Source: an uncultured Candidatus Saccharibacteria bacterium
Lineage (GTDB): Bacteria > Patescibacteriota > Saccharimonadia > Saccharimonadales > AWTP1-31
Length of the DNA stretch: 64,000 nucleotides
Reading direction: 5' to 3'
Assembly (NCBI GenBank): GCA_964643545.1
Contig: CAZXTE010000001.1
Coordinates: forward strand, 19,101-83,100
Made by a program: the position numbers and the translations under genes. Position 1 is the first letter of the stretch. Every line of letters begins with the position of its first letter. Under the pieces are notes generated by a model. The model was given only the letters and a program-made list of their open reading frames with translations, had not been told where the DNA came from and did no database searches. Shown here one piece after another: positions 9,935-58,062 of this stretch.

Positions 9935-9937
9935 CGC

Positions 9938-40800: not shown

Positions 40801-41575
40801 CACCTGCTGCCTTCCACATACCCTGGTTTGGGTCTTTTCGCCAGCCTTCTACGTCAAGGTTACTCACTTTGTCATTGACCTTAATCTTGTAGTCGCTTGC
40901 CCCGCCACTAAAACCATCCCGGGTTATTTCTATGCCGTATTTCTCGGATAGTTTATTCTCGAGGCGTGCATCGCGCCAACCCCTAAACAAGCGGGCAGCC
41001 GGCGAATCGCCTTCTAGATTGGCAATACAATTTTTGTCTATTGTCCCAGACGAACGACTACAGGTTCCCTTGCCTAGGTTTGGGATCACCTTATCTCGGA
41101 GGTACTTGTCTAGTAGCCTTTCTGCTCTCGTTTGCACAGCACTCTCCGAGCTGGCAAAAAAGCGACTCTGCAAATTTTCCATGATGTGGTTAATCTTCAA
41201 GGGCAAAAACGCCATGAATGCGGCCAGAATCAAACCGCCAATGCCACCCCCAATAAGCCCAGCACCAATCAATTTCTTTTTTTTGCCGCCCGTGGCACCT
41301 GCTAAAAATTTCTTAAGGCTTTGAAGGTCTTTTACATCCTCAGTATTGTAGCCGCTCCCAACCCTATCGCCGAGCGCATCTGCTTCTCTTGATGCGGCTC
41401 CGCCAACACCATCCGCTGCCTCTCCCTGAGCCTCTTGCTCTGAGATATTTGGTGTTTCTGTCGAAGCGTCACCACTGGCCTCGTTTGTTAGTTTGGGGTC
41501 CTCATCTCCGCCCCCCACACTTCCTGATGCTCTTCGAGGCGAGTCATCGTCATATATTTTTGATGGTTCACCCAT
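37829..41575 (-). CDS. giant membrane-anchored multi-domain protein: SGNH/GDSL hydrolase plus C-terminal M15 (VanY/LAS-type) peptidase domain
   Basis: 1248 aa with an N-terminal TM (GAGLIGGGIGGLILAAFMAFL). There are a GDSL block VYVVGDSLTNG and a downstream SGNH-like block. The C-terminal SRHQSGDAVD ... EPWHW motifs match Zn D-Ala-D-Ala carboxypeptidase-like (VanY / peptidase M15) signatures. Confidence 0.65.
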   Translation of the reverse strand: MGEPSKIYDDDSPRRASGSVGGGDEDPKLTNEASGDASTETPNISEQEAQGEAADGVGGAASREADALGDRVGSGYNTEDVKDLQSLKKFLAGATGGKKKKLIGAGLIGGGIGGLILAAFMAFLPLKINHIMENLQSRFFASSESAVQTRAERLLDKYLRDKVIPNLGKGTCSRSSGTIDKNCIANLEGDSPAARLFRGWRDARLENKLSEKYGIEITRDGFSGGASDYKIKVNDKVSNLDVEGWRKDPNQGMWKAAGGRNDVRIKVRESFKEETLWKRVMYRFKVGRLLEEKYGIRRCVFACKSKDRIDDWKDKKKGAFRLVINRRVIIPYTQHLGFVLECIIDPACDSDKASKGEADNDGVRRDKIEKQIREALEKSGKEFTEETVEKIVEKTIKLADKSLTAFIVEEVVAKIAGEAAGSAASKGLPVIGWIDLAARITAKAKSAGPALKRWKYEIIGTQMVATYMLYRTTADECKGMHCNVELLGSMTNGVGDSAGDKDHKNQPAELAPLYGDILGEPIQKSSFLDVLSPQKAYAAETGSTASEPKYTCDDKNKPDTGKLICPEESLLTNGVIQKISDIFNQPPLSLLGQTADAWNATIGQILNLINKLIDLGVGAVEAAISKIFPQYADLKKMIEEQIGKIFETIAKWLIPSPVSADMSGARTFDMLAGGADVAGNNDAHYGLGGIRLTDAQVAEIRADQENQRNEEFQRQPFFARMFSTESPKSLVSQMAMATPSSVTRTANTGVTGLLANPFTSLSKSFGSLLATKKTFAADAKPDPFGVVQYGFPKNSSALDVDPDTLTDAVCEKMDKDWANGRGEFAGTLIEDKETGTDVHTKENPCLLNKKAVAAAGGRYTTDVLDPEDYESETTSGGGGSNSGGGNNAVYVVGDSLTNGMKDLGSLTNKLQTAGWEVTKVQATDGIDVDRSLEKIDLDRNEVSRAGTIAVMLGTNPGPDSPQFASKIKLMVDKIHEYNPSAKIFWMNAKTQISNYDAVAAAVSSQAAALKYTPIDWRAEVAKNPAKYPFAPDKIHHTAAGYLAKSDFLVASLGPPPASTGGTGDGTCASGTKNVGLADGYEGGVLKKITLCAILGFPSSSEESNPRSQYYVNGADGNVLVAADKSNDWVNMFNAMKSDGVSPKASSSFRTMKHQQELCAKDDKCPNGVYSDVAKPGTSRHQSGDAVDFALTRVGHPEEFGTKNGGKASPSNPRVAPGMPMWDWLIDNAGKYNLKQYWNEPWHWSHTGS

Positions 41576-41601: not shown

Positions 41602-43515
41602 TTAAACTCCAGGCGTCAATCTATTGTTAAGGTCAATGGTGCCTTGTGGCTGATTGATTTCGCCCTGTCTCATTTGTTGAACCTGCTGCGGATTCGTTGT
41701 GATAAGCCCGGTTTCTGTAGGGCTGGCTGTAATCTGGATATGAACGTGGCTTTGCCCAGCGAAGAACAGGCCCTGGCCAACAGGAAATTGACTGAGGCGC
41801 TTCTTCTCCTCGCTGGTAAGCTTGAATATATCAGCCAATACATCAACGGCAGACGTCGACTGCTTCAGCAGTATCTGCATGCTTGCGTTGGCAACGATCG
41901 CGCGACCCATGCGTGATCCCATAAAGTCCTCCACATCCTGGCTAATGGTGGTAATGCCGAGGTTGTACTTTCGAGCACGTTTTGCAAGCGAAAACAAGAA
42001 GTTAGCAGAGTCTTCGTACTTCATAAGCTGCCAAGCTTCATCGACAATCAGAATGCGACGTTTTACGTCACTCTTCGTTTTGTTCCAGATGTAGTTCAGT
42101 ACAATGTACATAGCAACGGGGCGTAATTCGTCCTCGAGGTCACGTATGTTAAACACAACCAGGGGATTATTGACGTTAGTATTCGATTGCTGACTAAAAA
42201 TGCCCGCAAATGTACCGGTGGTATATTTTCTTAGACGCTGTGCGAGCTGTGGTCCTGTGCCGCCCATATGTAGCAGCGTGTCGTACAGATCGGCAATTGT
42301 TGGCGGAACCCCATTGTGCGTGAGTGGATCGTTGGTTATGCCGGCCTTGGCATATGTTTCGATGAGTGCTGCGTCGAGGTCGGATTCTTCTACGGGGGAT
42401 AAAGCAGGAACAGCGGCTACACCGCCACTTGCTGCCATTTGTGCTTGTGCGCCACCCATCATCAGTCGGAAGAGCCCGTGCAAAGTAATAATATTACTAC
42501 GCAAGGCGTTGTCGGCTTCTTCGGCATCTACAACCTTCGGAAGGTCAAAGGGGTTAATGCGTGTTGCTGAGCTCAAACTTAGTCGTACATATGCACCACC
42601 GACTGCATCACACATTCGCTGGTATTCGTTTTCTGGGTCAATAATAAAGATTTCGGTGCCGAACATAAGACTACGCAACGCTTCTAGCTTAACGGTAAAC
42701 GACTTACCAGCACCCGACTTGGCAAAGACAACTGAGTTGCCATTTTCTAGGCTAAACCGATCAAATATAACAAGACCAGAGTTGTGCATGTTGATGCCGT
42801 ACAATATGCCATTCTCTTGGCTCAGGTCGGCCGAAGTAAACGGGAAGCTCGTGCTAATCGCGCCCGTGTTCATATTGCGACGAATCTGAAGCTGGTCCAT
42901 AAATTGCGGTATGCAACTATTAAAGCCCTGCTCTTGCTGTGAGGTAGCTGCTTTGGAGTAGGTTAGCTGTTGGCCCAGCATAGACTCGATCTTGTGGGTT
43001 ACAAACTCCAGTTCGTCCATGTCGCCTGCGTAGACAGTAAAATATAATCCAAAACGGAAGAAACGTTCCTCGCCAACCTGTAACTTATCGCGCATTTCCT
43101 CAGCATCTGTAATGGCGGCCTGCTTGCCTGGGTCTCGCACGCGTCCCTTCTCTGCGTCAATCTGTAGACCGGCCTCTAACTGCGTTACTTTTTTGCGCAA
43201 GTTCTCCAAAACCACTTGGCTTTCCACGGGGTATATATACATAGAAAGATCCATAACCTCGTCGATGTTTACCAGGCTACTTGCCCAGCCTGTAAAAACC
43301 TGGCGGGGGTATCCGTAGACATAAAATGTTCTGGCTATCCTGGTCCCAATATGGAACAGACTATTCTCGAACACAAGTGAACTGGGGGCGATAAAGTCAC
43401 GAAGTGCAGTGATGCCCTTTTGGAACGCTGCGCTTACCTCTTGCTCTTCTCGTGCTCGTTGCGCTTGTGCGATTGCAACCGGGTCAACGGGTTGGTTCTT
43501 TCTGCCAAAAGCCAT
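41602..43515 (-). CDS. virB4: type IV secretion system ATPase, VirB4/TraC/CagE family (C-terminal ATPase module)
   Basis: Walker A FAKSGAGKSF and Walker B ILIVDEAWQL (DEAW is characteristic of VirB4) are present, with an ISQDVEDF motif C region. 637 aa is short for VirB4, which suggests the N-terminal domain is encoded separately. Confidence 0.75.
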   Translation of the reverse strand: MAFGRKNQPVDPVAIAQAQRAREEQEVSAAFQKGITALRDFIAPSSLVFENSLFHIGTRIARTFYVYGYPRQVFTGWASSLVNIDEVMDLSMYIYPVESQVVLENLRKKVTQLEAGLQIDAEKGRVRDPGKQAAITDAEEMRDKLQVGEERFFRFGLYFTVYAGDMDELEFVTHKIESMLGQQLTYSKAATSQQEQGFNSCIPQFMDQLQIRRNMNTGAISTSFPFTSADLSQENGILYGINMHNSGLVIFDRFSLENGNSVVFAKSGAGKSFTVKLEALRSLMFGTEIFIIDPENEYQRMCDAVGGAYVRLSLSSATRINPFDLPKVVDAEEADNALRSNIITLHGLFRLMMGGAQAQMAASGGVAAVPALSPVEESDLDAALIETYAKAGITNDPLTHNGVPPTIADLYDTLLHMGGTGPQLAQRLRKYTTGTFAGIFSQQSNTNVNNPLVVFNIRDLEDELRPVAMYIVLNYIWNKTKSDVKRRILIVDEAWQLMKYEDSANFLFSLAKRARKYNLGITTISQDVEDFMGSRMGRAIVANASMQILLKQSTSAVDVLADIFKLTSEEKKRLSQFPVGQGLFFAGQSHVHIQITASPTETGLITTNPQQVQQMRQGEINQPQGTIDLNNRLTPGV

Positions 43516-44387
43516 TACAGTAGCTCCCTGTCTAAGTTTGGTTGTGGAGCCTGTCCTTGCCCTCTTGTGACAACAGGTGTTGAAAGATCACCGAAGTTAC
43601 GAAGTTGCTGCCTTGTTGCAGTATCTGGGTTGTAGGCATCGTAGTAGAGCTCGATAAGTTCCTGGGTATCGAGTGGTAACCCTTGGATGCCGCACTGCAT
43701 CAATCCAGAGAGTACAGCTTGTACGCGGTTTCTCAGCTCGTCTTTTGCCTTGGCGAGATCAGTCTCATTGATAACCACTTGCTTCTCAGGCTTCTTGCTG
43801 AACAGTGCCCCAATGCCACCAACAAGTTTCTTGCTTTCATCCAGTGTTTTCTGCAGGTCTGCTACGGGGAAATAGGGTATGACCACGTAAAAACGTTTAT
43901 CCATAATGTTGGTTTGTTGGCTCAACTGATCCATGAAATTTATGTAATCGTCCATGAGTAGCGCCAACAGCATGTTGTCGTGCTCGCTACGAATTTTGAC
44001 AAGCTTATCCAAGTAAGGTCCAAGGTCTACCTTCTCGGAACGGATCATAATTTGTATAGGGAAATAGAGAGAATTTAGAAAACCCTGGTAGCTAAACTCA
44101 ACAGCCTCTCGTTCTTGCGGGCTCATTAGGTCAAAGTTAATAGATTTTGTCATGATGACGGAACGGAAAGAGCCATCGTTCATGATCACAATACCATCTC
44201 GGATTTCCGCTATTTGCAGGGCATTTTGTGTGCTGTTTGGGTTTGATGGTGGTGCAAGAGGTTGTGGTTTGGCCCCAGCGGTACGAGGTGCATTAAAGCT
44301 AGCAGGTGGCGGTCCAGCGGGGGTTGGGTATGCCATCCCGGGCTGGTTTTGTACGGGGTTCATCTGAGGATTTGATGCCGGATTCAT
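43515..44387 (-). CDS. protein translationally coupled to virB4, possible detached VirB4 N-terminal domain
   Basis: 290 aa. Its stop TAA overlaps the virB4 ATG by 1 nt. The N-terminus is Pro/Asn-rich and low-complexity. The rest (IAEIRDGIVIMNDGSFRSVIMTK...) is a folded domain reminiscent of the VirB4/TraC N-terminal region. Confidence 0.5.
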   Translation of the reverse strand: MNPASNPQMNPVQNQPGMAYPTPAGPPPASFNAPRTAGAKPQPLAPPSNPNSTQNALQIAEIRDGIVIMNDGSFRSVIMTKSINFDLMSPQEREAVEFSYQGFLNSLYFPIQIMIRSEKVDLGPYLDKLVKIRSEHDNMLLALLMDDYINFMDQLSQQTNIMDKRFYVVIPYFPVADLQKTLDESKKLVGGIGALFSKKPEKQVVINETDLAKAKDELRNRVQAVLSGLMQCGIQGLPLDTQELIELYYDAYNPDTATRQQLRNFGDLSTPVVTRGQGQAPQPNLDRELL

Positions 44388-44427: not shown

Positions 44428-45471
44428 TTAACGCAGCGATATTATTACTTCACCATCGTCAGTCTTTGATTGACTGGGGTGGTTCTTCTCTGCCTCTCGT
44501 GCCAAACTATCAATCGGGCGATTATTCTCGATTGCTAGGTTCAGTATATCAGGCGCAGGTGCTGCTGTCACCCCTGGTGATTTTGGTTGTGCTTGCGGGG
44601 GCTGACTCGAAAGCGGCTGGAGCTTTCTGTGGTTACGAAACGACTCATCTGGGTGGCTTTTTTGCTCGTGTATCTTGTTTAGTAGCGCCTGCTCATTTGC
44701 GTCTGGTATTGCTGGCTTGGCAAAAGTCGGAGCAGGTGTTGACCCTCCCTGTGATTGCACGAACCAGCCTCCTGGGGGTGCGATATTGGTGCTCGGTGCT
44801 TGTTGCTCCCGAGCAACTTCACGCATGTGAGAGACTGCCTCTTGTTGGTGCACTTCCTTCGACTGGGCAATTTGGGCATCGAGCCGAGCGGCCGTTTGAT
44901 TATCAAAAATATCATCCTCTGCTCGAACATCTATGGTCGAGACCTGCTTTGGCAATTCCTCGACCGCTACAAGCCTGTCCGAGCTTGGCGCCATAGCTAA
45001 CGAACCGTAAGAGGGCTGTGCAAATAAGTTCACGTCCACGTTCTTAATAACCCAACCACGGCTGTCTATGGTTGTTGCCAGCGCCTTAAGGCGGCTTTTG
45101 ACTTCGTTCTGGCTAAGGTTATCAGAGAAGTTCTGTTCAATATGTTTTGGAACAGTTATCTTGACCAGTTCCTTCATGCCCGACTGGTCCCAAATGCGTT
45201 TACGTGGCTTAAAGTAAAAACGGAGCTTAGCGAGGAGCCATACCTCAGTGGGCTGATCTCGACCCCACGGGAACGCCAAAAACCCAAAGACAATCTCTAT
45301 AGGCAACAAAATAACCGCCACAAACCATACATTGTGTGTAAGGCCCAAGAAACTTATGTAAAGACTGGTTACAACAATCGCCCCAAAGATAAATTGTTTC
45401 AGCGTTAAGGGGCCAAGGAACTTATCCTCTGCCTCAATATCCTGGAGAACTTTATACGTAGCCACTAGCAT
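44428..45471 (-). CDS. membrane protein with N-terminal TM hairpin, candidate VirB3-like T4SS subunit with extended Pro/Gln-rich tail
   Basis: Two adjacent N-terminal TM helices (FIFGAIVVTSLYISFLGL / VWFVAVILLPIEIVFGFLAF) sit immediately upstream of virB4. This position and topology are typical of VirB3/PrgI/TcpE. Confidence 0.45.
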   Translation of the reverse strand: MLVATYKVLQDIEAEDKFLGPLTLKQFIFGAIVVTSLYISFLGLTHNVWFVAVILLPIEIVFGFLAFPWGRDQPTEVWLLAKLRFYFKPRKRIWDQSGMKELVKITVPKHIEQNFSDNLSQNEVKSRLKALATTIDSRGWVIKNVDVNLFAQPSYGSLAMAPSSDRLVAVEELPKQVSTIDVRAEDDIFDNQTAARLDAQIAQSKEVHQQEAVSHMREVAREQQAPSTNIAPPGGWFVQSQGGSTPAPTFAKPAIPDANEQALLNKIHEQKSHPDESFRNHRKLQPLSSQPPQAQPKSPGVTAAPAPDILNLAIENNRPIDSLAREAEKNHPSQSKTDDGEVIISLR

Positions 45472-45523: not shown

Positions 45524-46495
45524 CTAAAGAGCTGGAGGTCCGGCAGGTGGTGCTGGAGGTGCAGCGGGCGGAGGCGGCAGTGCAGCTATGCGGGCAGCCT
45601 CTGCCGTAGCAGCTGCCTGGGCATCCAGATTGGCAGTTGCAAGTGCGGCAGTAGTTTGTATCTCGTTTAAGACCGCCCGCTCTGCATCGTATCTACCGAC
45701 GGCTGCATCAAGCAGGTTCACTCTCGTTTCTTTGGGGGTAGAAGCGCGTTTGTATTGAGGGCTAAATTCACCCAGAATTTTAAAAGCATCAAATCCACCA
45801 CCCTCCTTGTCGGGTCGCCTAGGGCGTTCCCGGGCAATGGGCATGTTGCTCTCGAATGGACCAAGGTCAGGCGTTGGGGAATAGGAGGTATCCTCTCCTA
45901 GGAGTGCTGGCCCCCGTGATGGAACGTGGCCTTCAAAGAATTCAAGCCCTGTCCCCACAATCCTACCAAGCGCTCCTGGATCGTCAGAGACGTGTTTTCT
46001 GCGACCCGTTGGGATGACTTCACGCCTAATGCTAAACACGGCAAATATTGGAGAGCCGCCGTCTCGGGCAACTTCCACCGGTGTGCTATAGGTTGTTTCA
46101 ACGCGTCCTATCGGCTGCTCTTCTCGCGAAATTCTGCCAGGTATGCGACTTCGCCGGTCTATACCAGGCCCTCTTGTTCGCAGGGCGTTTTGTCGCATGC
46201 GATCGGGCTCGCTTCTTTGGGTACGCTCTGCATCAACACCAATTCGCTGGATTAAGTCATCAACGTCTGCGGCTACTCGCTCTTGTTCTCCGTAGAATTC
46301 AAGCACAGCTTCCGCACCCCTGTGAATGTCCTGTGTTGCCTCAACGTGCGCTTCCCTTGTAGCCTCTTCATCATCACGTCGATCGTGTCTGGCCGTCTGT
46401 AATCTACGACGGAGGTCTTCTTGGTAGGCTGCTTGTTCTGGGCTAGGGATATCGCTCATAGTGTATTTTTGTTTTAATAGTGAGTAACAAATCAA
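45524..46495 (-). CDS. hypothetical protein with Pro/Ala-rich N-terminus, T4SS-operon member
   Basis: 323 aa. The N-terminus is low-complexity (PPPPAAPPAPPAGPPAL). It lies between the virB6-like gene and the virB3-like gene in the same operon. Confidence 0.45.
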   Translation of the reverse strand: MICYSLLKQKYTMSDIPSPEQAAYQEDLRRRLQTARHDRRDDEEATREAHVEATQDIHRGAEAVLEFYGEQERVAADVDDLIQRIGVDAERTQRSEPDRMRQNALRTRGPGIDRRSRIPGRISREEQPIGRVETTYSTPVEVARDGGSPIFAVFSIRREVIPTGRRKHVSDDPGALGRIVGTGLEFFEGHVPSRGPALLGEDTSYSPTPDLGPFESNMPIARERPRRPDKEGGGFDAFKILGEFSPQYKRASTPKETRVNLLDAAVGRYDAERAVLNEIQTTAALATANLDAQAAATAEAARIAALPPPPAAPPAPPAGPPAL

Positions 46496-46547: not shown

Positions 46548-49500
46548 CTATTGGCGCTTGGTGGGGTCGTTGCCAACATCTATTGGGATATCCTCTCCAG
46601 GAAGTGGGGTACCGGACCGTCCCGCTGGACCACCCGGTACAGTTGAGCGTGTTGGAGTACCGGCTATGGGGTCTGCTCTGCCTGTGGTGCCTACCTCGCG
46701 GCTCCACTCGACGGGGTCAGTTGCGGCGTGCCCTGTAGCTGGGTCGATCCTAGAACTAGTTTCAAATAATGCGTAAAAGTTCTCCATTTCTTCTTTGGTG
46801 CGTCCGCTAGCACCACCACCAACTTGGGTGATCATTCTTCCAGTTGGGGTACCGCTTGCCGTCATTTCCGGTACTGTCTGGCCGATGCTGCGTGCAATTC
46901 GAGCACCACGTTGGATAACTTCATTTGCGGCTGCCTGTTCATCGGCTGTTGCAGCTGGGTTAGCGAGTGTGGTACGAGCACGAACGACTTCTTCTGACAT
47001 TGTAGTCCAGGTGTCCGGATGCTGTTGTGTCATCTGGTATGTGCCTTGGCGTTCATCGATCTCTTGCATAAGGGCTGTGGCATTCATGGTTAGTCCATTC
47101 TCGCCGTATTGGTAATGCTTCCACTCGCGGTCGGTATTCTGGTTGGCGAAGGCCGCACCCGTCCATATGCCACCCATTTGGCCTGTAGTAGCATTTTCGG
47201 CAGCACCACCACGTGTTGCTAGGCGACCAACGTTCTGGTACAGGTAATCATGTTGTTCTTGGGTGGTGGCTTTGCGCATTTCGTAACTAAGAGCGTACTG
47301 TGCAGCATCTTGGTCCCCACGCCAGCGATTGTGTGCCGCATCCACGGCACTTTCGTCGACCCATTTCCCACCAAGTGTTTTATATTGACGTGTATTATTG
47401 TGGATTCGAACATGACCATTCCCGTCCGGGTCGTAGAGGTTGCCGGCTATAGCATCGGCCTCCGCCTTGTTTACAGTCAGTGCTCGTACCTCAGTATCAT
47501 CCCCGGTAGAGGTCAGCTGCTCCATTCGTTTTTGTGTTTCGCCACGCATTGCTGTAATACCCTCCTCGAGGTTATAGCCACCAACACGCCCCTGCAAGAA
47601 TCGCGCGCTTCTGCCAAACCGACCGCCCCTGCTGGCGTAGGTGCCAAGGGCACGGTATTGACGATCTCGTGCTGTTAGCATGCGGCGCTGCACATCTTGT
47701 TTGGCCTGTTCTTTGCGACTTTTGGTGAGCCCTCCAACCTTTGCGGTGCCCCCAGCAACGGCTGCATAGAGTTTGCCCATGGCTCCCCCGGCAAACTTGA
47801 AAGCAAAAGGAATCAGGAATAATGGGATAATTTGCAGCGAGAATGCGATGAGACCCGCAAGTCCCGCGGAAACAGGGTTGGGACTTCCGGAAGTCCCTAC
47901 GGCGTCATTTGCTACGAGTATTGTTGCGCTCAATATGCTGGCAGTCGAGAATATAACAACAACAATTGGGAACACTAGTAATGTCTCGAATAATAAGTTC
48001 CACCACTTTTTAAAATATTGTTCGGTATTTGGGAGGCAGTACAAAGCAAATGCAACGGGGCTGACCATAATGAGGGCTAATATAATGCCGCGCCGAATAA
48101 CGAGCGTTGCAAAGACCGCAAGGATGGCTAACATTGCCGGAACGACAATGCCGATAAGAATAAAAACTGCCGCCTTCCCCAGGAACCCTGCCGTTAAAAA
48201 CCCACCCAGGAACCCTGCAATACCTGCAGCCCCAAGAAACAATGCGAGAACAGTAGTTAGTACTGCGCCAAGTTGCGCCCCTGGGCTGGGAGCTGCATGA
48301 AGCAAATCGGCCACTGGGGCCATCATGAGCTGGGCAATTCCCTTGCCAAGAACGTTGGTGATGTCCACGAGCAAAGCCACAATGTAGACAGATAAGTTTA
48401 TGAGTATGGCCGCTATTAATATGCGTGGCATCACTTTCTTGGCTGTATACGCATCGATAATGCCTCCACCGATAGTTTGCCCAAAAACAATGACCAGCAT
48501 GGCTATGATGAGGAATATATTGCCATAAACGCGAAATGCCGACCACGCCTTGAAGCTCGGGTCTGATGGGTCGGTAGAAACAGGGCTGGTATATAAAAGA
48601 GGGGATACAAGATTCTTAAAAAGCCAGTCAGTTGTTTCGGCAAACATATTAAAGACAGGGCAAAGTATCCAGTTTAGGCTAAAACCAGATGCTTCGCAGG
48701 TGGCGTTTGTGTCGTCCGATGTGCCGTCCGTGTTCCCACCCCCAGACGGGTTACTGCCCCCACTATTATCTCCCTGATTTCCTTTAGAATCTTCAATTTG
48801 TTTCTGGTAATCGCCATCAAGATCCTTCATGAGCTTAGATAGGTCTGGGGTAAAGCCGTCATCTTCCAAAATATGGAAACATTTTTTATTCTTGTCGCCG
48901 CCACACTGCTGAGAGTTACTGTTCGTATCTAGATTATAGACGAGACTACTCCCGACCATCTGCACTGCGTAATTATCTGCCGTGATTGCGGCACTGGACC
49001 ATGTTACGTCATCTTGGTCTACTTCAAAGTCTTGATTGATGGTGAGTGCAATTGTTATCTCTTTGCCATCCTTGTCCTTTATGACGGATGCTGCACCACT
49101 ATTGTTGTTGCCAGGCAGCTTAATGAGACGAAAGCGAAAATTACCCGACTTTTTTAGAAAGGCGAGCTTGTCTGCCTGGGCACTAGCTTGTATGTAGTCT
49201 TTATCGCCAGCTTTAATTTTAAAGTGGACGCTTACTTTTCTTTGATTAAGTGGGCTGATATCGATACGTGACGTACATGTCTTGTCTCGATACGATTTGT
49301 CGGCAAACTTTTGGTGTTCCTCCCAGACCCCTGAGCTCTTAAGCTTTGAGTAGAGCTTTTCGGCTTGATCTGCATAAAACCTCTTGGTGCTCGCGTCGCC
49401 GCCATTACGAATGTCCCACAAGTGGTCCTGATCTTTGGGGTTGCCTTTCTGGTAGGTAAATGTGCCAGGAAAGCACAGGTCCATGGTAAGCCGTGCATCT

Positions 49501-49844
49501 CCATTAACAAATGTGGCAATACGGGGCGCAGCTACTGTAGAAAACTCAGCCGAGGCAGTCTTATAGGTATAGTCACCATTATCCGGGATAGATTCTGCTT
49601 TGTTATCGGCGCGAATGTAAGGCAAGTCTCGATCCGTGCGGGTTGTAAAGACATCCTTTCCCGGAACACGATTATAATTTGAGTTCACATCGTCATCATA
49701 AGGACTGGTAGCGTATGCTATTTGTGGCGTGAAAATAATAACGCCAGCAAGAAGCTGCAGGATGATAAATGATATAAAAGCAAATGGAATAAGCTTGCGG
49801 TTAGATCTCACAACTGAAGTATAGATTAACGGAATTAAATACAC
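46548..49844 (-). CDS. large polytopic membrane protein, VirB6/TrbL-like channel subunit with N-terminal extracellular and C-terminal cytoplasmic domains
   Basis: 1098 aa. Signal anchor, then a ~380-aa external domain, then about 8-9 TM helices (residues ~400-690), then a ~400-aa hydrophilic tail. It is the first gene of the operon containing virB4. Confidence 0.55.
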   Translation of the reverse strand: MYLIPLIYTSVVRSNRKLIPFAFISFIILQLLAGVIIFTPQIAYATSPYDDDVNSNYNRVPGKDVFTTRTDRDLPYIRADNKAESIPDNGDYTYKTASAEFSTVAAPRIATFVNGDARLTMDLCFPGTFTYQKGNPKDQDHLWDIRNGGDASTKRFYADQAEKLYSKLKSSGVWEEHQKFADKSYRDKTCTSRIDISPLNQRKVSVHFKIKAGDKDYIQASAQADKLAFLKKSGNFRFRLIKLPGNNNSGAASVIKDKDGKEITIALTINQDFEVDQDDVTWSSAAITADNYAVQMVGSSLVYNLDTNSNSQQCGGDKNKKCFHILEDDGFTPDLSKLMKDLDGDYQKQIEDSKGNQGDNSGGSNPSGGGNTDGTSDDTNATCEASGFSLNWILCPVFNMFAETTDWLFKNLVSPLLYTSPVSTDPSDPSFKAWSAFRVYGNIFLIIAMLVIVFGQTIGGGIIDAYTAKKVMPRILIAAILINLSVYIVALLVDITNVLGKGIAQLMMAPVADLLHAAPSPGAQLGAVLTTVLALFLGAAGIAGFLGGFLTAGFLGKAAVFILIGIVVPAMLAILAVFATLVIRRGIILALIMVSPVAFALYCLPNTEQYFKKWWNLLFETLLVFPIVVVIFSTASILSATILVANDAVGTSGSPNPVSAGLAGLIAFSLQIIPLFLIPFAFKFAGGAMGKLYAAVAGGTAKVGGLTKSRKEQAKQDVQRRMLTARDRQYRALGTYASRGGRFGRSARFLQGRVGGYNLEEGITAMRGETQKRMEQLTSTGDDTEVRALTVNKAEADAIAGNLYDPDGNGHVRIHNNTRQYKTLGGKWVDESAVDAAHNRWRGDQDAAQYALSYEMRKATTQEQHDYLYQNVGRLATRGGAAENATTGQMGGIWTGAAFANQNTDREWKHYQYGENGLTMNATALMQEIDERQGTYQMTQQHPDTWTTMSEEVVRARTTLANPAATADEQAAANEVIQRGARIARSIGQTVPEMTASGTPTGRMITQVGGGASGRTKEEMENFYALFETSSRIDPATGHAATDPVEWSREVGTTGRADPIAGTPTRSTVPGGPAGRSGTPLPGEDIPIDVGNDPTKRQ

Positions 49845-49931: not shown

Positions 49932-50450
49932 ATGAACGAAAACAATAATCAAACACCAGCAGAAACCGTAGACTACAGTTTCATAACGGATCAACCCACG
50001 GCATCTCCAAAAAAGAAACCTAATAAAATGATCGCCATATTTCTCGGGTTGACGTTGCTCGTTATTTTGGCGGCGGGCTTACTGTTGTTAGTACAGTCCA
50101 AAAAAAGCACAACCAAAAGTAACATCGACGCAGAACAGGTCGTCCGACAACTTTTTGTAGATATGGGGAACGGGGATAATATCGCCGCCCTAAACGCATT
50201 TACGGGGCCAAATAAGCCGGATGCTGCGTACCTTGAGGGCTACTTAATAGCTCCGCTGAAGAATGATTACTTGGTAGATTCATGCACATTTACCTCTTCA
50301 GAAACAAAAGTAGCTAGCTATTACCAGGTCAAGGCATCTTGCCCACAAAAGCAAGCAAGTAACATCAGAATTCGTGTAGACTTTACAGTTATGAGACAAG
50401 AGCTATCATCGAAAATTGTTGCATACTCTCTTGGCGGGGTAGATACGTGA
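49932..50450 (+). CDS. bitopic membrane protein, divergent from the T4SS operon
   Basis: 172 aa with a TM at residues ~33-54. It overlaps the next gene by 4 nt. Confidence 0.5.
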   Translation: MNENNNQTPAETVDYSFITDQPTASPKKKPNKMIAIFLGLTLLVILAAGLLLLVQSKKSTTKSNIDAEQVVRQLFVDMGNGDNIAALNAFTGPNKPDAAYLEGYLIAPLKNDYLVDSCTFTSSETKVASYYQVKASCPQKQASNIRIRVDFTVMRQELSSKIVAYSLGGVDT

Positions 50451-51433
50451 AATTGGTAAAGCGGGTTCACACCGCCGGATTAGTTATCCTATCTGTCGCT
50501 GGTCTACTTAGTGCAACATTATTCGTACATCCAAAATCGGTCCAAGCAGCCGCGCCAATATGCTATGAGCTACTCGGCAGCTCTGGTAATGATGTCCGAG
50601 TGGCTGACTGTAATAATCCCACAGTAGTTACTTTAAGAGACCAAAAGTACCCTGCTGACAAAAAATTTCTTGACGATCACTGTTACCTATATGGTGGATT
50701 TGGATTTTTCATAAAACGAGGTTTAACAGAAGTGCCGCCTGCGAGCGATGCAAATAAGAAATACACCTGTGAGTGGGCAAGAAAAGCGGCGGCTGCAGGT
50801 CAGGCAGCCGCTCCAAAATGTTACTTATTCTCTCGTGCGACGTTGGACGATTACTTTTCATTTAAATTTGCCGCTACAGATATCAAGGAAACTGCGTGCA
50901 CGCAAGAATTAAAGAATTACTACAGGTTTGTTCACAATCCTAAAGAAATAGAAAGCGGGTGGTGCTACCTATTCAGCCAAGATCATAACAACATCCAGAC
51001 ATCATGTGCAGACCTTCTTTCCAATATTGCAACTGCAGATAGTAGCGGAGGCGGGGGCGGCGGCACCTCCAGTTGCGCAAGCGATCCAACGCTTTCTTTC
51101 TGTGTGGACCTGCCGGTTAAGACCAATGATACGTGCGGCGAAGCTGGTAGCGGTACGGAAGTCCAGATATCGATCAATGTGGGATGTGTGGGCAAAGGTA
51201 ATGGCATTCTTGATCTGACCTTTGCGCTCATTCGATTTCTCTCTTATGGTGTGGGCATTGCCATGGTGGCCTCTTTAGTTGTTGCTGGCATACAGTACAG
51301 CTCCTCTAGAGGTGATCCACAGGCTACCAGCAAGGCAATAGGTCGTGCGCAGAGCACTGTTGGGGCGTTACTTCTGTTCTTGTTTATATATGCTATATTG
51401 AACTGGATAATACCCGCAGGACTCTTGAAATGA
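50447..51433 (+). CDS. Cys-rich secreted protein with C-terminal VirB2/TrbC-pilin-like helix-loop-helix
   Basis: 328 aa with a signal peptide and at least 12 Cys, followed by a Gly-rich linker SSGGGGGGTSSC. The C-terminus has two hydrophobic helices flanking SSSRGDPQATSK. This is the same module as in the five downstream paralogs. Confidence 0.55.
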   Translation: MKLVKRVHTAGLVILSVAGLLSATLFVHPKSVQAAAPICYELLGSSGNDVRVADCNNPTVVTLRDQKYPADKKFLDDHCYLYGGFGFFIKRGLTEVPPASDANKKYTCEWARKAAAAGQAAAPKCYLFSRATLDDYFSFKFAATDIKETACTQELKNYYRFVHNPKEIESGWCYLFSQDHNNIQTSCADLLSNIATADSSGGGGGGTSSCASDPTLSFCVDLPVKTNDTCGEAGSGTEVQISINVGCVGKGNGILDLTFALIRFLSYGVGIAMVASLVVAGIQYSSSRGDPQATSKAIGRAQSTVGALLLFLFIYAILNWIIPAGLLK

Positions 51434-51819
51434 CACTCCCCCTAACCTATTTTGCAGCAGCTTGTGAAGCTGGGAAAGACACCGCCGGGCAGGTGTTAAA
51501 CTTCTTTGCATTTCCTACGTGGTACAAATATCTTGAAGGGCAGACTATCACAAGTAACGGTGCCGCAGAATGTGCCCCTAAAATCACTAAGATTGGTGAT
51601 GCCTGGTTGGTGTTGGCGGCTGTTATAGAAATAATGCTACGAGTCGGTGCACTCATTGCGATAGCATTTGTTATCTATGGGGGCATATCGTTTATTACCA
51701 GCGAAGGACAGCCAGATAAAGCATCAAAAGCCAGGAGCACAGTAATAAATGCAGTTATTGGGCTGGCACTTTCGATTTCGGCATCGGCGGTAATCTCTTT
51801 CATAGCAAGGAGCTTTTAA
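51430..51819 (+). CDS. VirB2/TrbC-pilin-like small membrane protein (paralog 2 of 6)
   Basis: 129 aa. The helix-loop-helix has the loop ITSEGQPDKASKARS. It overlaps the upstream gene by 4 nt. Confidence 0.55.
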   Translation: MTLPLTYFAAACEAGKDTAGQVLNFFAFPTWYKYLEGQTITSNGAAECAPKITKIGDAWLVLAAVIEIMLRVGALIAIAFVIYGGISFITSEGQPDKASKARSTVINAVIGLALSISASAVISFIARSF

Positions 51820-52140
51820 GTGACATTCAACGTATTTGCACAAACACAGCCCCCACCTACTTCACAGGTTGGTGTTTGTACTACAGATTTGTGCAACACA
51901 AATCTGCCCGCAGTGAGTGCAGGAAGCACGCAAGTGACTACGGTTTTGCAGATCTTGTTTGGAGTGGTAGCAGTGCTGGCGCTTATTTATGTCATTTTGG
52001 CAGGTTTGAAGCTCATCACTTCCAGCGGTGATCCTCAGTCAGTAGCAAAAGGACGACAACAGATACTCTTTGCAGTTATTGGCCTGACAGTTGCACTCAG
52101 CGCCGAACTAATCATTTCATTTGTAATCAACAGGCTATAA
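51820..52140 (+). CDS. VirB2/TrbC-pilin-like small membrane protein (paralog 3 of 6)
   Basis: 106 aa with a CTTDLC Cys pair and the loop ITSSGDPQSVAKGRQQ between two hydrophobic helices. Confidence 0.55.
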   Translation: MTFNVFAQTQPPPTSQVGVCTTDLCNTNLPAVSAGSTQVTTVLQILFGVVAVLALIYVILAGLKLITSSGDPQSVAKGRQQILFAVIGLTVALSAELIISFVINRL

Positions 52141-52142
52141 TC

Positions 52143-52550
52143 ATGAGAAAATTAACACTAGTTATGGCAACCGTACTAGGCAGCATGCTTTTTGCGCTGC
52201 CGAATACAGTATTTGCGGTAGATGTTTTTGGGGGGTCGGACGGTGCTTGTACACAAGCAAATACCACGGGCGAAGTTCCGGAAATATGTAAGGACACCGT
52301 GAACGCAACGGGCGAGAACCCTATAGTAGGGCCGAGTGGTATTGTCACCAAGGGTTTACAAGTACTCGTCATTGTAATCGGCATCATTGCGGTTGTGATG
52401 TTAGTAATCTCTGGGCTACGACTTATTATGTCGGGCGGTGATCCAAAAAATGCGGCCAGCGCACGAGATGGCATACTGTACGCCGGTATTGGTATAGTAG
52501 TAGTAGTGACTGCACAACTGCTGATCAACTTTGTATTAACAAAACTGTAA
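52143..52550 (+). CDS. VirB2/TrbC-pilin-like secreted protein (paralog 4 of 6)
   Basis: 135 aa with a signal peptide and a Cys pair (CTQANTTGEVPEIC). The loop is IMSGGDPKNAASARD. Confidence 0.6.
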   Translation: MRKLTLVMATVLGSMLFALPNTVFAVDVFGGSDGACTQANTTGEVPEICKDTVNATGENPIVGPSGIVTKGLQVLVIVIGIIAVVMLVISGLRLIMSGGDPKNAASARDGILYAGIGIVVVVTAQLLINFVLTKL

Positions 52551-52558
52551 AGGAAAAA

Positions 52559-52969
52559 ATGAAAAAAATTGCCCGTTTCAGGAAAAACTTGGTAGTAGCA
52601 CTGGCGTCTGTGTTCTTCTTAGTACCGCTCTCGCCTGTTCTGGTGCATGCAGGACCATTCGACAGCGCCAAAGACGCAGCATGTAAGGGTTTAAATTTTG
52701 ACGACCCTACGGCCACGTGTGCTGCAGGCTCTAAGGACGCAGAAACAAATGCCAAGCTAAAGACGGCCGTGAATCTTTTGTCGGCTATTGTGGGTGTAAT
52801 TGCAGTAGTTATGATTATCATTGCAGGCATGAATTTTATAACTGCAGGAGGAGATTCGGGCAAAGTTTCAACTGCCAGGAATATGATTCTGTACGCTGCA
52901 ATTGGTATTGTAGTTGTAGCCCTCGCACAACTGATCGTCCGCTTTGTCTTGCAACGATTCGGGAAGTAG
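52559..52969 (+). CDS. VirB2/TrbC-pilin-like secreted protein (paralog 5 of 6)
   Basis: 136 aa with a signal peptide and a Cys pair (CKGLNFDDPTATC). The loop is ITAGGDSGKVSTARN. Its C-terminal 20 aa are near-identical to the next paralog. Confidence 0.6.
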   Translation: MKKIARFRKNLVVALASVFFLVPLSPVLVHAGPFDSAKDAACKGLNFDDPTATCAAGSKDAETNAKLKTAVNLLSAIVGVIAVVMIIIAGMNFITAGGDSGKVSTARNMILYAAIGIVVVALAQLIVRFVLQRFGK

Positions 52970-53031
52970 CTGTTGTAACTTCCCTCAAAGTTGTGATATA
53001 AACATAAGTAGCAATATAGAAAGGTAAAAGA

Positions 53032-53460
53032 ATGATTAAAAAATTAAAACGTTTAGTAGTTGGCTTCACCGCTTCGGCTGCACTGTTAATGCCTTTGGCT
53101 ATACCTGTGGCTGTTCACGCGCAAACGACTGAAGACATTGGAAAGAACTTTTGTCAGGGGGCAGACATAACACTCGGTACTGGTACGGGTAGCTCTGCAA
53201 CCTGTGATACCAAAGATGCAGAAAGCAAAGTGAATACTACCGTAAAGAACTCGCTCAATCTTTTTTCGGCAATAGTTGGTATTTTGTCTGTAGTCATGAT
53301 CATTATTGGTGGTGTTAAGTACATCACCTCTGGTGGTGAATCTGGCAAGGTTACCTCAGCCAAAGACAGCATTTTGTTTGCGGTCGTCGGATTGATTGTC
53401 GTGGCTCTTGCACAACTGATCGTCCGCTTCGTCTTGCAACGATTCGGTAACCCCACCTAA
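53032..53460 (+). CDS. VirB2/TrbC-pilin-like secreted protein (paralog 6 of 6)
   Basis: 142 aa with a signal peptide and a Cys pair (CQGADITLGTGTGSSATC). The loop is ITSGGESGKVTSAKD, and the tail ALAQLIVRFVLQRFG is shared with paralog 5. Confidence 0.6.
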   Translation: MIKKLKRLVVGFTASAALLMPLAIPVAVHAQTTEDIGKNFCQGADITLGTGTGSSATCDTKDAESKVNTTVKNSLNLFSAIVGILSVVMIIIGGVKYITSGGESGKVTSAKDSILFAVVGLIVVALAQLIVRFVLQRFGNPT

Positions 53461-53481
53461 GAAAGTTAGACGTATTAAAAA

Positions 53482-53509
53482 AGCTCCGGGTAACCGGAGC
53501 TTTTTATTT
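53482..53509. terminator. bidirectional rho-independent terminator
   Basis: The stem is AGCTCCGG/CCGGAGCT with a GTAA loop, and it is flanked by an A-run and a T-run (AAAAAAGCTCCGGGTAACCGGAGCTTTTTATTT). It lies between the convergent pilin array and hsp20. Confidence 0.8.
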
Positions 53510-53521: not shown

Positions 53522-54004
53522 CTAAAGAACCTGGATCTTCTTGACGGTGTCTTGCTTGAGCTTAGTAAAGCTAATGGTTAGAACGCCATCTTTCAAGACT
53601 GCTTCGATCTCTTCTTCTTTAACGGGAACAGGTAATGTGATGCTGCGAGAGAATTCTCCCCAGTAGCATTCTTGAACAAAATAGTTCTCTACGTCATCTT
53701 CGTTGCCGGCAGATAGCGTGCCACGAATGCTAAGCGTGTTGTCGGCAATGCTCACATCGAGTTCTTGCTTGTTGACTCCCGCGGTACGTGCCTTTACGAC
53801 TAGTTTTTCCTTGGTCTCGTATACATCAACTGCTAATTGGCCAGGAACTGCTTCTTCCTCGTCCCATTCTTCTGCGGCCACAACTGCTGTGTTTGCGGCG
53901 ACAGGCGCAGTAGTCGCTGTTTCTGGAGCATCGTCTTCACCCAAAAAGGCAGCCGTCAGCTCATCTTCCATCAATAAATCTTCATCACGATTACGTCGTG
54001 CCAT
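53522..54004 (-). CDS. Hsp20/alpha-crystallin family small heat shock protein
   Basis: 160 aa. The alpha-crystallin domain shows the LSIRGTL...GVLTISF beta-sandwich signature, and the N-terminal arm is acidic. Confidence 0.8.
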   Translation of the reverse strand: MARRNRDEDLLMEDELTAAFLGEDDAPETATTAPVAANTAVVAAEEWDEEEAVPGQLAVDVYETKEKLVVKARTAGVNKQELDVSIADNTLSIRGTLSAGNEDDVENYFVQECYWGEFSRSITLPVPVKEEEIEAVLKDGVLTISFTKLKQDTVKKIQVL

Positions 54005-54123: not shown

Positions 54124-54792
54124 ATGCCAGTACTAGAGATAATTTTATCGGTCGTTGCTCCGCACACCTGTGTGGGTTGCGGTGTCGAGGGCTCACTTCT
54201 CTGCTGCGGGTGTAGCGTCGAGATTACTCCTGTGCCCTCGCGTTGCTACCACTGTAGAAAGCGAACAGAGTCTTTTAGAACGTGCCAAAGTTGCAGAGGC
54301 TCGAGCAAGCTGCGTCGAGTCTTCGTGCGGGCACAATACTGCGACGTTCCTAAGGAGCTGGTGCATAAGCTGAAGTTTGAACGTGCTCGAGCTGCTGCTG
54401 CAACGCTAGCAAGTTTGATGAGCGAGAAGTGGGGTGATGTTTCGACAGATACGCTGATCGTTCATGTGCCGACGGCAACATCGAGAAGGCGCCAGCGGGG
54501 TTATGACCAAGCTGAACTCCTTGCAAAGGAGCTGAAGAGATTAACTGGTGCTAAGCGAGCATCGTTGCTTTGTCGTCTTGGGCAGCAACGCCAAGTTGGT
54601 CATACTAGAAAACAACGCCTTGAACAGCTGAGTAATGCTTTCTATATATTAAACCCAAAAGAAGTAATAGGGAGAGATGTTCTTCTTGTTGACGATGTGT
54701 TGACGACAGGCGCTACCCTGGAGGCAGCCGCAAATGTGCTTCGCAGAGCGGGTGCACGACACGTTGATGCAATAGTTTTTGCACAGGCATAA
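54124..54792 (+). CDS. comFC: ComF family protein (ComFC: zinc-ribbon + phosphoribosyltransferase domain)
   Basis: There is an N-terminal double CxxC zinc ribbon (CVGCG...C..C, then C..C), and a C-terminal PRTase motif VLLVDDVLTTGATL. Confidence 0.75.
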   Translation: MPVLEIILSVVAPHTCVGCGVEGSLLCCGCSVEITPVPSRCYHCRKRTESFRTCQSCRGSSKLRRVFVRAQYCDVPKELVHKLKFERARAAAATLASLMSEKWGDVSTDTLIVHVPTATSRRRQRGYDQAELLAKELKRLTGAKRASLLCRLGQQRQVGHTRKQRLEQLSNAFYILNPKEVIGRDVLLVDDVLTTGATLEAAANVLRRAGARHVDAIVFAQA

Positions 54793-54829: not shown

Positions 54830-54919
<90 letters not shown>

Positions 54920-54940
54920 AGACTAGCTTTTCGTGTTACG

Positions 54941-58039: not shown

Positions 58040-58062
58040 AGCGTCAACCGGGCAGTCACAGA

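What the first reader, a model, noticed from the sequence alone, without database searches (positions are those of the whole stretch)
50447..53460. Six-gene array of pilin-like paralogs with conserved helix-(S/G)GDP-helix module; five of the six carry a Cys-Cys loop
Six consecutive co-oriented genes (50447-51433, 51430-51819, 51820-52140, 52143-52550, 52559-52969, 53032-53460) encode proteins with the same C-terminal module. It is hydrophobic helix, then a short loop, then hydrophobic helix: IMSGGDPKNAASARDGILYAG, ITSSGDPQSVAKGRQQILFAV, ITAGGDSGKVSTARNMILYAA, ITSGGESGKVTSAKDSILFAV, ITSEGQPDKASKARSTVINAV and YSSSRGDPQATSKAIGRAQST. In five of the six, a pair of Cys residues lies 5-20 residues apart just upstream of the first helix (the 129-aa paralog has its two Cys about 36 residues apart and further upstream). 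Further upstream still, the N-termini are variable, ranging from Cys-rich to short. Paralogs 5 and 6 share a near-identical C-terminal tail, which points to recent duplication. The architecture matches VirB2/TrbC-type T4SS pilins. Multiple sequence-diverse copies suggest antigenic or adhesive variation, or major and minor pilins with a large Cys-rich tip-like member.
Basis: seen in the sequence. Interest (0 to 1): 0.85.

Follow-up and report, generated by a model that had tools for sequence, protein, structure and literature searches.

The report
Saccharibacteria secretion-system pilin gene array
These six genes are the already described set of VirB2-like pilins in the chromosomal type IV secretion system of Saccharibacteria, so the finding is real and correctly read but not new.

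Summary
Six co-oriented ORFs at 50447-53460 each end in a helix, (S/G)G(D/E) loop, helix module. Each also carries paired Cys upstream of that module.

Five of the six pass the Pfam gathering threshold for PF18895 (T4SS_pilin). The 328-aa member falls below it.

The window comes from a Candidatus Saccharibacteria chromosome. The array sits next to dnaA/dnaN/recF. It is transcribed divergently from a VirB6-like, PrgI/VirB3-like, TrsD-like, VirB4-like and cell-wall hydrolase cluster.

This is the same locus as SEML1_0013-0021 of Southlakia epibionticum. There, six PF18895 pilins are scored essential by Tn-seq (Wang 2023). Pilin arrays of 2-11 genes have been catalogued across Patescibacteria (Quinonero-Coronel 2025).

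What I add:
- In 16 related loci the array almost always has six genes in one fixed order of orthologous types.
- Types 2 and 3 lack signal peptides in every locus with six genes.
- The Cys pair is a family-wide feature.
- The ectodomain of type 1 is hypervariable.
- Types 5 and 6 are more alike within a genome than between genomes.

This argues for a fixed set of different pilins and against an antigenic-variation cassette or a recent duplication.

Verdict: already known. Interest is low to moderate.

The parts
49932..50450 (+). 172-aa single-pass membrane protein with 2 Cys in its outer domain. It is the first gene of the operon and overlaps p1 by GTGA. It is lineage-specific.
   Evidence: ORF. 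One hydrophobic segment at residues 29-60, with C118/C137. No Pfam family above threshold. Homologs only in L001, L005 and L006.
50447..51433 (+). p1: 328-aa pilin-like protein. It has a Sec-type signal peptide, a hypervariable ectodomain with 12 Cys, and a C-terminal pilin hairpin.
   Evidence: PF18895 17 bits, below the cutoff. My own family HMM gives E 1.5e-5. Position-1 proteins are each other's best hits in 182 of 182 comparisons. Only the C-terminal roughly 100 aa and the C230/C247 pair are conserved among homologs.
51430..51819 (+). p2: 129-aa pilin with no signal peptide. It carries the conserved FPTWYKYL motif and the C12/C48 pair.
   Evidence: PF18895 27.7 bits. Orthology 182 of 182. 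No signal peptide in any of the 14 loci with six genes. Motif residues P29, W31 and L35 are invariant.
51820..52140 (+). p3: 106-aa pilin with no signal peptide. It has a short, weakly charged N-tail and a tight C20/C25 loop. It is the member closest to monoderm ICE pilin-like proteins.
   Evidence: PF18895 39.3 bits. NF045849 39.0 bits against a cutoff of 40; nine orthologs score 27-39 bits. GTG start with AAGGAG 7 nt upstream. N-tail charges.
52143..52550 (+). p4: 135-aa pilin with a signal peptide ending VFA|VDV and the C36/C49 pair.
   Evidence: PF18895 42.9 bits. N-terminal signature conserved across loci.
52559..52969 (+). p5: 136-aa pilin with a signal peptide and the C42/C54 pair.
   Evidence: PF18895 50.8 bits and PF04956 22 bits, the latter below its cutoff. 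C42 and C54 are at least 90% conserved in 51 homologs. The AF2 model has helices 60-95 and 100-134.
53032..53460 (+). p6: 142-aa pilin with a signal peptide and the C41/C58 pair. Its C-terminal helix co-varies with that of p5.
   Evidence: PF18895 51.2 bits. Within-genome p5-p6 tail identity is 0.72 against 0.49 between genomes, with 0 of 5000 permutations reaching it.
53478..53505 (.). Intrinsic terminator hairpin flanked by an A-run and a U-run. It lies between the array and the convergent Hsp20 gene.
   Evidence: 12-bp stem, -22.6 kcal/mol, z -4.86, 0 of 200 shuffles as stable.
46548..49844 (-). 1098-aa polytopic VirB6-like protein, transcribed divergently from the pilin operon. It is the presumed assembly platform.
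   Evidence: No Pfam or NCBIfam hit. Its homologs flank the pilin array in 16 loci. Its S. epibionticum counterpart SEML1_0013 has a structural match to TrbL/VirB6 in Wang 2023 Table S2.
45524..46495 (-). 323-aa protein of unknown family inside the T4SS cluster.
   Evidence: No family hit. A homolog is present only in L001, at 79% identity.
44428..45471 (-). PrgI/VirB3-like protein.
   Evidence: PF12666 44 bits against a cutoff of 27.
43515..44387 (-). 290-aa protein with weak similarity to TrsD and to the N-terminal part of VirB4.
   Evidence: NF041427 25.4 bits against a cutoff of 200, so weak. Conserved next to VirB4 in the related loci.
41602..43515 (-). VirB4-like ATPase.
   Evidence: PF19044 TraG P-loop 93.5 bits and PF12846 AAA_10 45.7 bits. 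99.5% identical in L001.
37829..41575 (-). 1248-aa protein with GDSL-like lipase and VanY peptidase domains. It is a candidate VirB1-like envelope hydrolase.
   Evidence: PF02557 56.2 bits. PF13472 32.4 bits, just under its 32.9 cutoff. Syntenic in the related loci.
35401..37863 (-). 820-aa glycoside hydrolase family 3 protein with a weak NlpC/P60 match at the C-terminus.
   Evidence: PF00933 216 bits. PF00877 18.3 bits, below its cutoff.

Best explanation
The six genes encode the VirB2-like pilin set (Pfam PF18895) of the chromosomal type IV secretion system that Saccharibacteria carry next to their replication origin. They are the ortholog of the six-pilin array scored essential for epibiotic growth in Southlakia epibionticum.

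Proposed mechanism:
1. p1, p4, p5 and p6 enter the membrane through Sec and lose a signal peptide. p2 and p3 have no signal peptide and insert through their weakly charged N-tails.
2. Each mature protein is a two-helix membrane hairpin. The short (S/G)G(D/E)...K/R loop faces the cytoplasm. The N- and C-termini are outside.
3. The outer N-segment is locked by one disulfide, or by six in p1.
4. The VirB4-like ATPase extracts the hairpins from the membrane.
5. The hairpins stack on the VirB6-like platform into a tube that crosses the cell wall. The loop lines the lumen and the disulfide-bonded N-segments lie on the surface.
6. The six are distinct, non-interchangeable types. p1 carries a fast-evolving ectodomain and is a candidate tip or host-contact subunit.

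Shown here: family membership, gene context, orthology with the essential array, fixed six-type order, Cys-pair conservation, and the pattern of signal peptides.

Inferred: membrane topology, disulfide formation, polymerisation into a pilus, the division of labour among the six types, and the transported substrate.
For: Family membership:
- PF18895 is above threshold for 5 of 6.
- All 120 homologs of p5 carry precomputed PF18895 hits, and many also carry PF04956.
- NCBI already names the close relative's p5 and p6 'pilin'.

Context:
- A VirB4-like ATPase, a PrgI/VirB3-like protein and hydrolases lie on the opposite strand. dnaA, dnaN and recF are 15 kb away.
- The same gene order (Hsp20, six pilins, VirB6-like, PrgI, TrsD-like, VirB4, hydrolase) occurs in 16 unique Saccharibacteria loci.
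- It also occurs in S. epibionticum. There SEML1_0014-0019 are six PF18895 proteins, all scored essential at both outgrowth time points. They are followed by Hsp20, a ComFC-like gene and tRNA-Ser.

Fixed set of different types:
- 13 unique loci plus the window have exactly six pilin genes, 2 have seven and 2 have five.
- Best-hit analysis gives positional orthology of 182/182 for p1, 182/182 for p2, 141/182 for p3 and 162/182 for p6.
- Each position has its own N-terminal signature.

Topology:
- Signal peptides on p1 and p4-p6.
- Two long helices joined by a 4-residue turn in the model.
- 300 of 315 Cys lie upstream of the hairpin, and 105 of 114 pilins have an even Cys count.
- Two p2 orthologs have lost both Cys together.
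- One p5 ortholog carries a C-terminal PG_binding_1 domain.
- A VKOR homolog is encoded 4.5 kb away.

Precedent: VirB2-like PrgF assembles on a VirB6 pentamer in Gram-positive T4SS.
Against: - No pilus made of these proteins has been seen or purified.
- PF04956 (TrbC/VirB2) is below threshold for all window proteins.
- p1 misses the PF18895 threshold, and its model is unusable at pLDDT 41.7.
- The Tn-seq essentiality of the upstream pilin genes could partly reflect polar effects on downstream genes.
- p4, p5 and p6 are not cleanly separable by best hit.
Confidence: 0.8

Rival explanations
1. The array is an antigenic-variation or host-range cassette. Under this view the pilins are redundant and interchangeable, have diversified recently, and vary in copy number so the cell can escape recognition or adapt to different hosts.
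For: Paralogs share only 21-29% identity over their full length. Quinonero-Coronel 2025 raise this idea by analogy with Bartonella and Anaplasma. The p1 ectodomain is hypervariable. p1, p3 and p4 diverge faster than VirB4 between the window and L001.
Against: The copy number is six in 13 of 17 unique complete related arrays, and also in the window. The order of types is conserved across genomes whose VirB6-like proteins are only 29-49% identical. Positions 1 and 2 are perfect ortholog groups. All six are scored essential in S. epibionticum, which redundant copies would not be. No long DNA repeats or silent cassettes were found in the array.
Confidence: 0.08
2. The proteins are T4SS membrane components that never form an extended extracellular pilus. 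They would stay as a membrane-embedded ring, or form only a short stalk through the cell wall, and serve as channel lining rather than as a filament.
For: No Patescibacterial T4SS pilus has been shown. Gram-positive T4SS pili have never been seen by EM and may be short or transient. The family assignment rests on a small two-helix module, and its fold is not diagnostic.
Against: The N-terminal segments are elaborate, secreted and carry paired Cys. One member has a 250-aa ectodomain. These features are easier to explain for surface-exposed subunits. CryoET of the Saccharibacterium M. amalyticus shows a tube about 9 nm wide and 60-70 nm long that starts at the inner membrane and reaches into the host. 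No gene has been assigned to that tube.
Confidence: 0.2
3. They are unrelated small two-TM proteins, such as holins, bacteriocin immunity proteins or type IV pilus (T4P) pilins, that only resemble VirB2.
For: Weak sub-threshold hits to assorted membrane families such as DUF1634 and DUF6112. The generic helical-hairpin fold matches thousands of structures.
Against: PF18895 E-values reach 1e-13. Linkage to VirB4, VirB6 and PrgI is constant. None of the six has a T4P class III prepilin motif. No lysis or bacteriocin genes were found among the flanking genes scanned.
Confidence: 0.02

Closest known systems
Essential six-pilin array of the Southlakia epibionticum ML1 T4SS (SEML1_0014-0019; Wang et al. 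2023 Cell, PMC10633639)
   Same: Both have six PF18895 genes on one strand, divergent from a roughly 1090-aa VirB6-like gene. Both are followed by a convergent Hsp20 gene, a ComFC-like gene and tRNA-Ser. Both lie a few kb from dnaA/dnaN/recF, with VirB4-like, PrgI and hydrolase genes on the other side. Gene sizes are similar for positions 3-6: 103, 126, 127 and 138 aa there, and 106, 135, 136 and 142 aa here.
   Different: This is a different, uncultured Saccharibacteria lineage. The first two members are 132 and 185 aa in ML1, and 328 and 129 aa here, so the large member differs in size and possibly in position. This window has an extra 172-aa gene ahead of the array. ML1 has a second VirB6-like gene, SEML1_0011, which I did not see in the part of this window I examined.
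Patescibacterial VirB2 arrays (Quinonero-Coronel et al. 2025, PMC12102498)
   Same: They report arrays of 2-11 tandem PF18895/PF04956 genes near virB4 and near dnaA. The arrays are abundant in Saccharimonadia, with mean within-array identity of about 25%. This window fits that description.
   Different: That survey suggests the diversity may aid adaptation to different host strains. The loci examined here show a fixed order of six orthologous types instead.
VirB2/TrbC/TraA conjugative pilins of diderm T4SS (PF04956)
   Same: Both are small proteins with a signal peptide, two hydrophobic helices, a short charged connecting loop, and genes within a T4SS cluster.
   Different: PF04956 scores are below threshold here, at 16-22 bits against 27.9. 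These proteins have a disulfide-bonded N-terminal outer segment. Two members lack signal peptides. The host is a monoderm. There are six paralogs rather than one major pilin. No VirB5-like gene was recognised among the genes I scanned.
Monoderm VirB2-like proteins: PrgF of pCF10 (ter Beek et al. 2025 preprint) and the Mycoplasma ICE Mbov_0395 family (NF045849)
   Same: Both are two-helix hairpins with no signal peptide, like p2 and p3, and are encoded beside VirB6-like and PrgI genes in MPF-FATA-type systems. p3 scores 39.0 bits on NF045849, whose cutoff is 40. hhalign of the pilin profile against PrgF gives 52% probability over helix 1.
   Different: The scores stay just under the equivalog cutoff. 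PrgF itself does not hit NF045849. Those systems have a single short pilin of 75-80 aa with no Cys-pair ectodomain, and they serve conjugation with a relaxase and a coupling protein.

Membership tests
Pfam PF18895 T4SS_pilin | HMM score at or above the gathering threshold of 26.6 bits | tested here: met
   p2 27.7, p3 39.3, p4 42.9, p5 50.8 and p6 51.2 bits. p1 scores only 17 bits and is not met for that protein alone. p1 is linked through my own family HMM (E 1.5e-5) and through homologs that carry precomputed PF18895 hits.
Pfam PF18895 T4SS_pilin | Two hydrophobic helices joined by a short polar or charged loop at the C-terminus | tested here: met
   Hydrophobicity segments. The AF2 model has helices 60-95 and 100-134. 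The p1 model has helices 253-286 and 291-324.
Saccharibacterial T4SS pilin array (Wang 2023; Quinonero-Coronel 2025) | Tandem PF18895 genes adjacent to VirB6-like, PrgI and VirB4 genes on the chromosome near dnaA | tested here: met
   Gene-by-gene match to SEML1_0008-0021.
Saccharibacterial T4SS pilin array (Wang 2023; Quinonero-Coronel 2025) | Essential for growth on the host | not testable with these tools
   Known only for S. epibionticum by Tn-seq. The organism in this window is uncultured.
VirB2/TrbC pilins (Pfam PF04956) | HMM score at or above the gathering threshold of 27.9 bits | tested here: not met
   p5 22.0, p6 20.7 and p3 16.3 bits; the others have no hit. Many homologs do carry precomputed PF04956 hits.
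VirB2/TrbC pilins (Pfam PF04956) | Fold match to solved conjugative pilin structures | tested here: inconclusive
VirB2/TrbC pilins (Pfam PF04956) | Polymerises into a helical pilus with the loop lining the lumen | not testable with these tools
   Needs multimer modelling or experiment.
NCBIfam NF045849 Mbov_0395 pilin-like conjugal transfer protein | Equivalog cutoff of 40 bits | tested here: not met
   p3 39.0 bits; the other four small pilins 23-28.5 bits. Nine p3 orthologs score 26.9-39.1 bits. These indicate homology (E down to 4e-10) but not equivalog membership.
Type IV pilus (T4P) pilins | Class III prepilin signal (G|F-x-x-x-E) near the N-terminus | tested here: not met
   The motif is absent from all six.

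The most novel reading that the evidence does not exclude
The six pilins are non-redundant parts of one heteromeric organelle, the roughly 9-nm 'lance' or conduit that cryoET shows running from the inner membrane of a Saccharibacterium into its host.
- p3, and perhaps p2, have no signal peptide and most resemble monoderm ICE pilin-like proteins. They would be the ancestral core or base subunits.
- p4-p6 would form the shaft. p5 and p6 co-evolve or exchange sequence.
- p1, with its hypervariable multi-disulfide ectodomain, would form the barbed tip and set host specificity.
- On this reading the pilins descend from the MPF-FATA lineage and were not borrowed from diderm systems.
Probability: 0.3. 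Interest if true: 0.7.

Novelty: already known. Interest (0 to 1): 0.25.

Why it matters
The Saccharibacteria T4SS is essential for life on the host, but its function is unknown. Its pilin array is the feature that sets it apart from the classical Gram-positive T4SS description.

This window adds another example of that array and not a new system.

The comparative points made here give concrete hypotheses for groups that can now manipulate Saccharibacteria genetically:
- a fixed order of six orthologous types;
- two types without signal peptides;
- a family-wide Cys pair;
- a hypervariable first member;
- p5 and p6 evolving in concert.

They suggest which pilin to tag, which to swap between strains to test host range, and which to look for in the cryoET tube.

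Tried and rejected
1. Foldseek of the p5 model against PDB gave nothing below E = 6.
3. A profile search of PDB sequences gave only spurious MacB and TPR hits.
4. The AF2 model of p1 had pLDDT 41.7. Its ectodomain could not be interpreted, so I ran no fold search on it.
5. The afdb50 fold library was unavailable.
6. The promoter scan found 6 sites against 6.9 expected, so it was uninformative. The terminator scan missed the obvious hairpin after p6, which I then confirmed by folding.
7. I considered stop-codon read-through or recoding between p2 and p3, which share a reading frame. I rejected it. The stop is TAA, p3 has its own AAGGAG-spaced GTG start, and the two are separate ORFs in every one of the 13 related loci with six genes.
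8. I considered T4P pilins and rejected them, because the prepilin motif is absent.
9. hhalign against PrgF gave only 52% probability. That is suggestive, not proof.
10. The accession AY855841 is not in the plasmid collection, so I used NC_006827.

Full report
**1. The observation**

- 50447-51433 (328 aa, p1)
- 51430-51819 (129 aa, p2)
- 51820-52140 (106 aa, p3)
- 52143-52550 (135 aa, p4)
- 52559-52969 (136 aa, p5)
- 53032-53460 (142 aa, p6)

They form a tight operon together with an upstream 172-aa gene at 49932-50450. There are GTGA and ATGA start/stop overlaps, and a TAA stop is followed directly by a GTG start that has AAGGAG 7 nt upstream. The other gaps are 2, 8 and 62 nt. A strong hairpin terminator follows p6 at 53478-53505 (-22.6 kcal/mol, z -4.86).

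Every protein ends in two hydrophobic segments split by the quoted loop.

The p5 and p6 tails share VVALAQLIVRFVLQRFG, and 38 nt of DNA with one mismatch.

**2. What the genes are**

Pfam PF18895 (T4SS_pilin) is above its gathering threshold for p2-p6, at 27.7-51.2 bits against 26.6. It is below threshold for p1, at 17 bits. PF04956 (TrbC/VirB2) appears only below threshold.

The opposite strand carries these genes:
- a 1098-aa polytopic VirB6-like protein
- a 323-aa protein of unknown family
- a PrgI/VirB3-like protein
- a weakly TrsD-like protein
- a VirB4-like ATPase
- two large envelope hydrolases, one VanY+GDSL and one GH3 with a weak NlpC/P60 match

dnaA, dnaN and recF lie at 30393-34355.

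The VirB6-like protein finds 29 loci, nearly all labelled Candidatus Saccharibacteria or Saccharimonadales. The closest is MAG CTOTU2456 at 94% identity. The exact p1-p6 sequences are already in NCBI. The close relative's p5 and p6 are named 'pilin' there.

**3. Comparison with the literature**

- Wang et al. [quoted passage not shown]
- Their tables list SEML1_0014-0019 as six PF18895 proteins of 132, 185, 103, 126, 127 and 138 aa. All six are scored essential at both outgrowth time points. They are divergent from the VirB6-like SEML1_0013 and are followed by Hsp20, a ComFC-like gene and tRNA-Ser.
- The window has the same neighbours: Hsp20 at 53522-54004, a ComF-like gene at 54124-54792, and tRNA-Ser genes at 54830-55033.
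- Quinonero-Coronel et al. 2025 (PMC12102498) report 441 VirB2 arrays of 2-11 genes in 383 Patescibacteria assemblies. They note the proximity to dnaA.

The finding is therefore a correct rediscovery of a published system.

**4. What the comparison of loci adds**

I built an HMM from 120 homologs plus the window paralogs and scanned the ORFs of all loci.

- *Presence.* Every locus with T4SS neighbours and enough upstream sequence has the array. Thirteen unique loci plus the window have exactly six genes, two have seven and two have five. Loci without an array are either cut by a contig end or hold a lone second VirB6-like paralog.
- *Positional orthology.* I took the best BLASTP hit between loci for each position. 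Position 1 hit position 1 in 182 of 182 comparisons, and position 2 hit position 2 in 182 of 182. Position 3 did so in 141 of 182 and position 6 in 162 of 182. Positions 4 and 5 were mixed, at 101 and 99 of 182.
- *Type signatures.*
  - p1 has a signal peptide plus a variable ectodomain with 2-12 Cys.
  - p2 has no signal peptide and an invariant FPTWYKYL-type motif.
  - p3 has no signal peptide and a short N-tail with few charges.
  - p4-p6 have signal peptides with distinct mature N-termini.
- *Concerted change in p5 and p6.* They are more alike within a genome than between genomes, most strongly in the last helix. Identity there is 0.72 against 0.49, and 0 of 5000 permutations reach that value. 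This points to gene conversion or co-evolution and not to recent duplication.
- *The p1 ectodomain.* It has recognisable homologs only in very close relatives. Its hairpin and the adjacent C230/C247 pair are conserved.

**5. Topology and disulfides**

- Of 114 pilin ORFs, 105 have an even number of Cys and 83 have exactly two.
- 300 of 315 Cys lie upstream of the hairpin.
- C42 and C54 of p5 are at least 90% conserved in 51 homologs.
- Two p2 orthologs have lost both Cys together.
- One p5 ortholog (in L018) carries a C-terminal PG_binding_1 domain at 49.6 bits. That domain must sit outside the cell.
- A VKOR homolog is encoded at 57957-58700.

With the signal peptides, these points support N-out, loop-in, C-out, which is the VirB2 topology. 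This is inference, not measurement.

**6. Relationship to monoderm pilin-like proteins**

p3 scores 39.0 bits on NF045849, the Mycoplasma ICE Mbov_0395 pilin-like family, whose cutoff is 40. Nine p3 orthologs score 27-39 bits.

hhalign of the pilin profile against PrgF of pCF10 gives 52% probability over helix 1. PrgF was recently shown to be a VirB2-like pilin that assembles on VirB6.

This hints that the Patescibacterial pilins come from the MPF-FATA lineage. The evidence is suggestive only.

**7. Mechanism**

The best-supported model is a heteromeric VirB2-type tube. It would be built on the VirB6-like platform and powered by the VirB4-like ATPase. The charged loop would line the lumen and the disulfide-bonded N-segments would sit on the surface.

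CryoET of the Saccharibacterium M. amalyticus shows a tube about 9 nm wide and 60-70 nm long. It runs from the inner membrane into the host and has a barb at its tip. No genes have been assigned to it. From my own knowledge, conjugative pili are about 8-9 nm wide. Linking this pilin set to that tube is my inference.

**8. What failed**

Structure searches were not diagnostic. The p1 model was unusable.

**9. Verdict**

The system is already known. Interest is about 0.25, with a modest novel angle in the fixed set of six orthologous types.

Noticed in passing
window 57957-58700 (+): A VKOR-family protein (PF07884, 84.5 bits) lies 4.5 kb downstream of the array. It is a plausible oxidant for the paired Cys of the pilins and other exported proteins in this reduced genome. 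It has no fused thioredoxin-like domain.
   Followed up: partly
window 53522-54004 (-); also 18 of the related loci (e.g. L001 1795-2277): An Hsp20 gene lies immediately next to the last pilin gene in 18 loci, convergent with it in all but two (L003, L028). Its S. epibionticum counterpart SEML1_0020 is scored essential. Conserved linkage of a small heat-shock protein to a pilin operon is unexplained.
   Followed up: partly
L018 5348-5965 (-): A position-5 pilin is fused at its C-terminus to a PG_binding_1 domain (49.6 bits). This could anchor or guide the subunit in peptidoglycan, either the cell's own or the host's.
   Followed up: partly
window 49932-50450 (+): A 172-aa single-pass membrane protein with two Cys is translationally coupled to p1. 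It is found only in the closest relatives (L001, L005, L006) and is only 81% identical in L001, against 99.5% for VirB4.
   Followed up: partly
window 35401-41575 (-): Two very large multi-domain envelope hydrolases sit at the end of the T4SS cluster. One is GH3 with a weak NlpC/P60 match. The other combines a GDSL-like lipase domain with a VanY peptidase domain. The lipase domain is unusual for a VirB1-type role and might act on the host envelope.
   Followed up: no
L002, L010, L012, L025 (VirB6-like match at about 9100-12600 in each): Several Saccharibacteria genomes carry a second VirB6-like paralog away from any pilin, PrgI or VirB4 gene. One MAG (RYN_413) has both kinds of locus, L002 and L014.
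   Followed up: no
window 54830-55033 (-) and 55741-55817 (+): Two adjacent tRNA-Ser genes (anticodons TGA and GCT) and a tRNA-Arg (GCG) follow the ComF-like gene. S. epibionticum has a tRNA-Ser at the matching position.
   Followed up: no
window 45524-46495 (-): A 323-aa protein between the VirB6-like and PrgI genes has no family hit and is only 79% identical in the closest relative. At the same place S. epibionticum has a non-essential NTF2-like (VirB8-like fold) protein, SEML1_0012. I did not test whether the two are equivalent.
   Followed up: no
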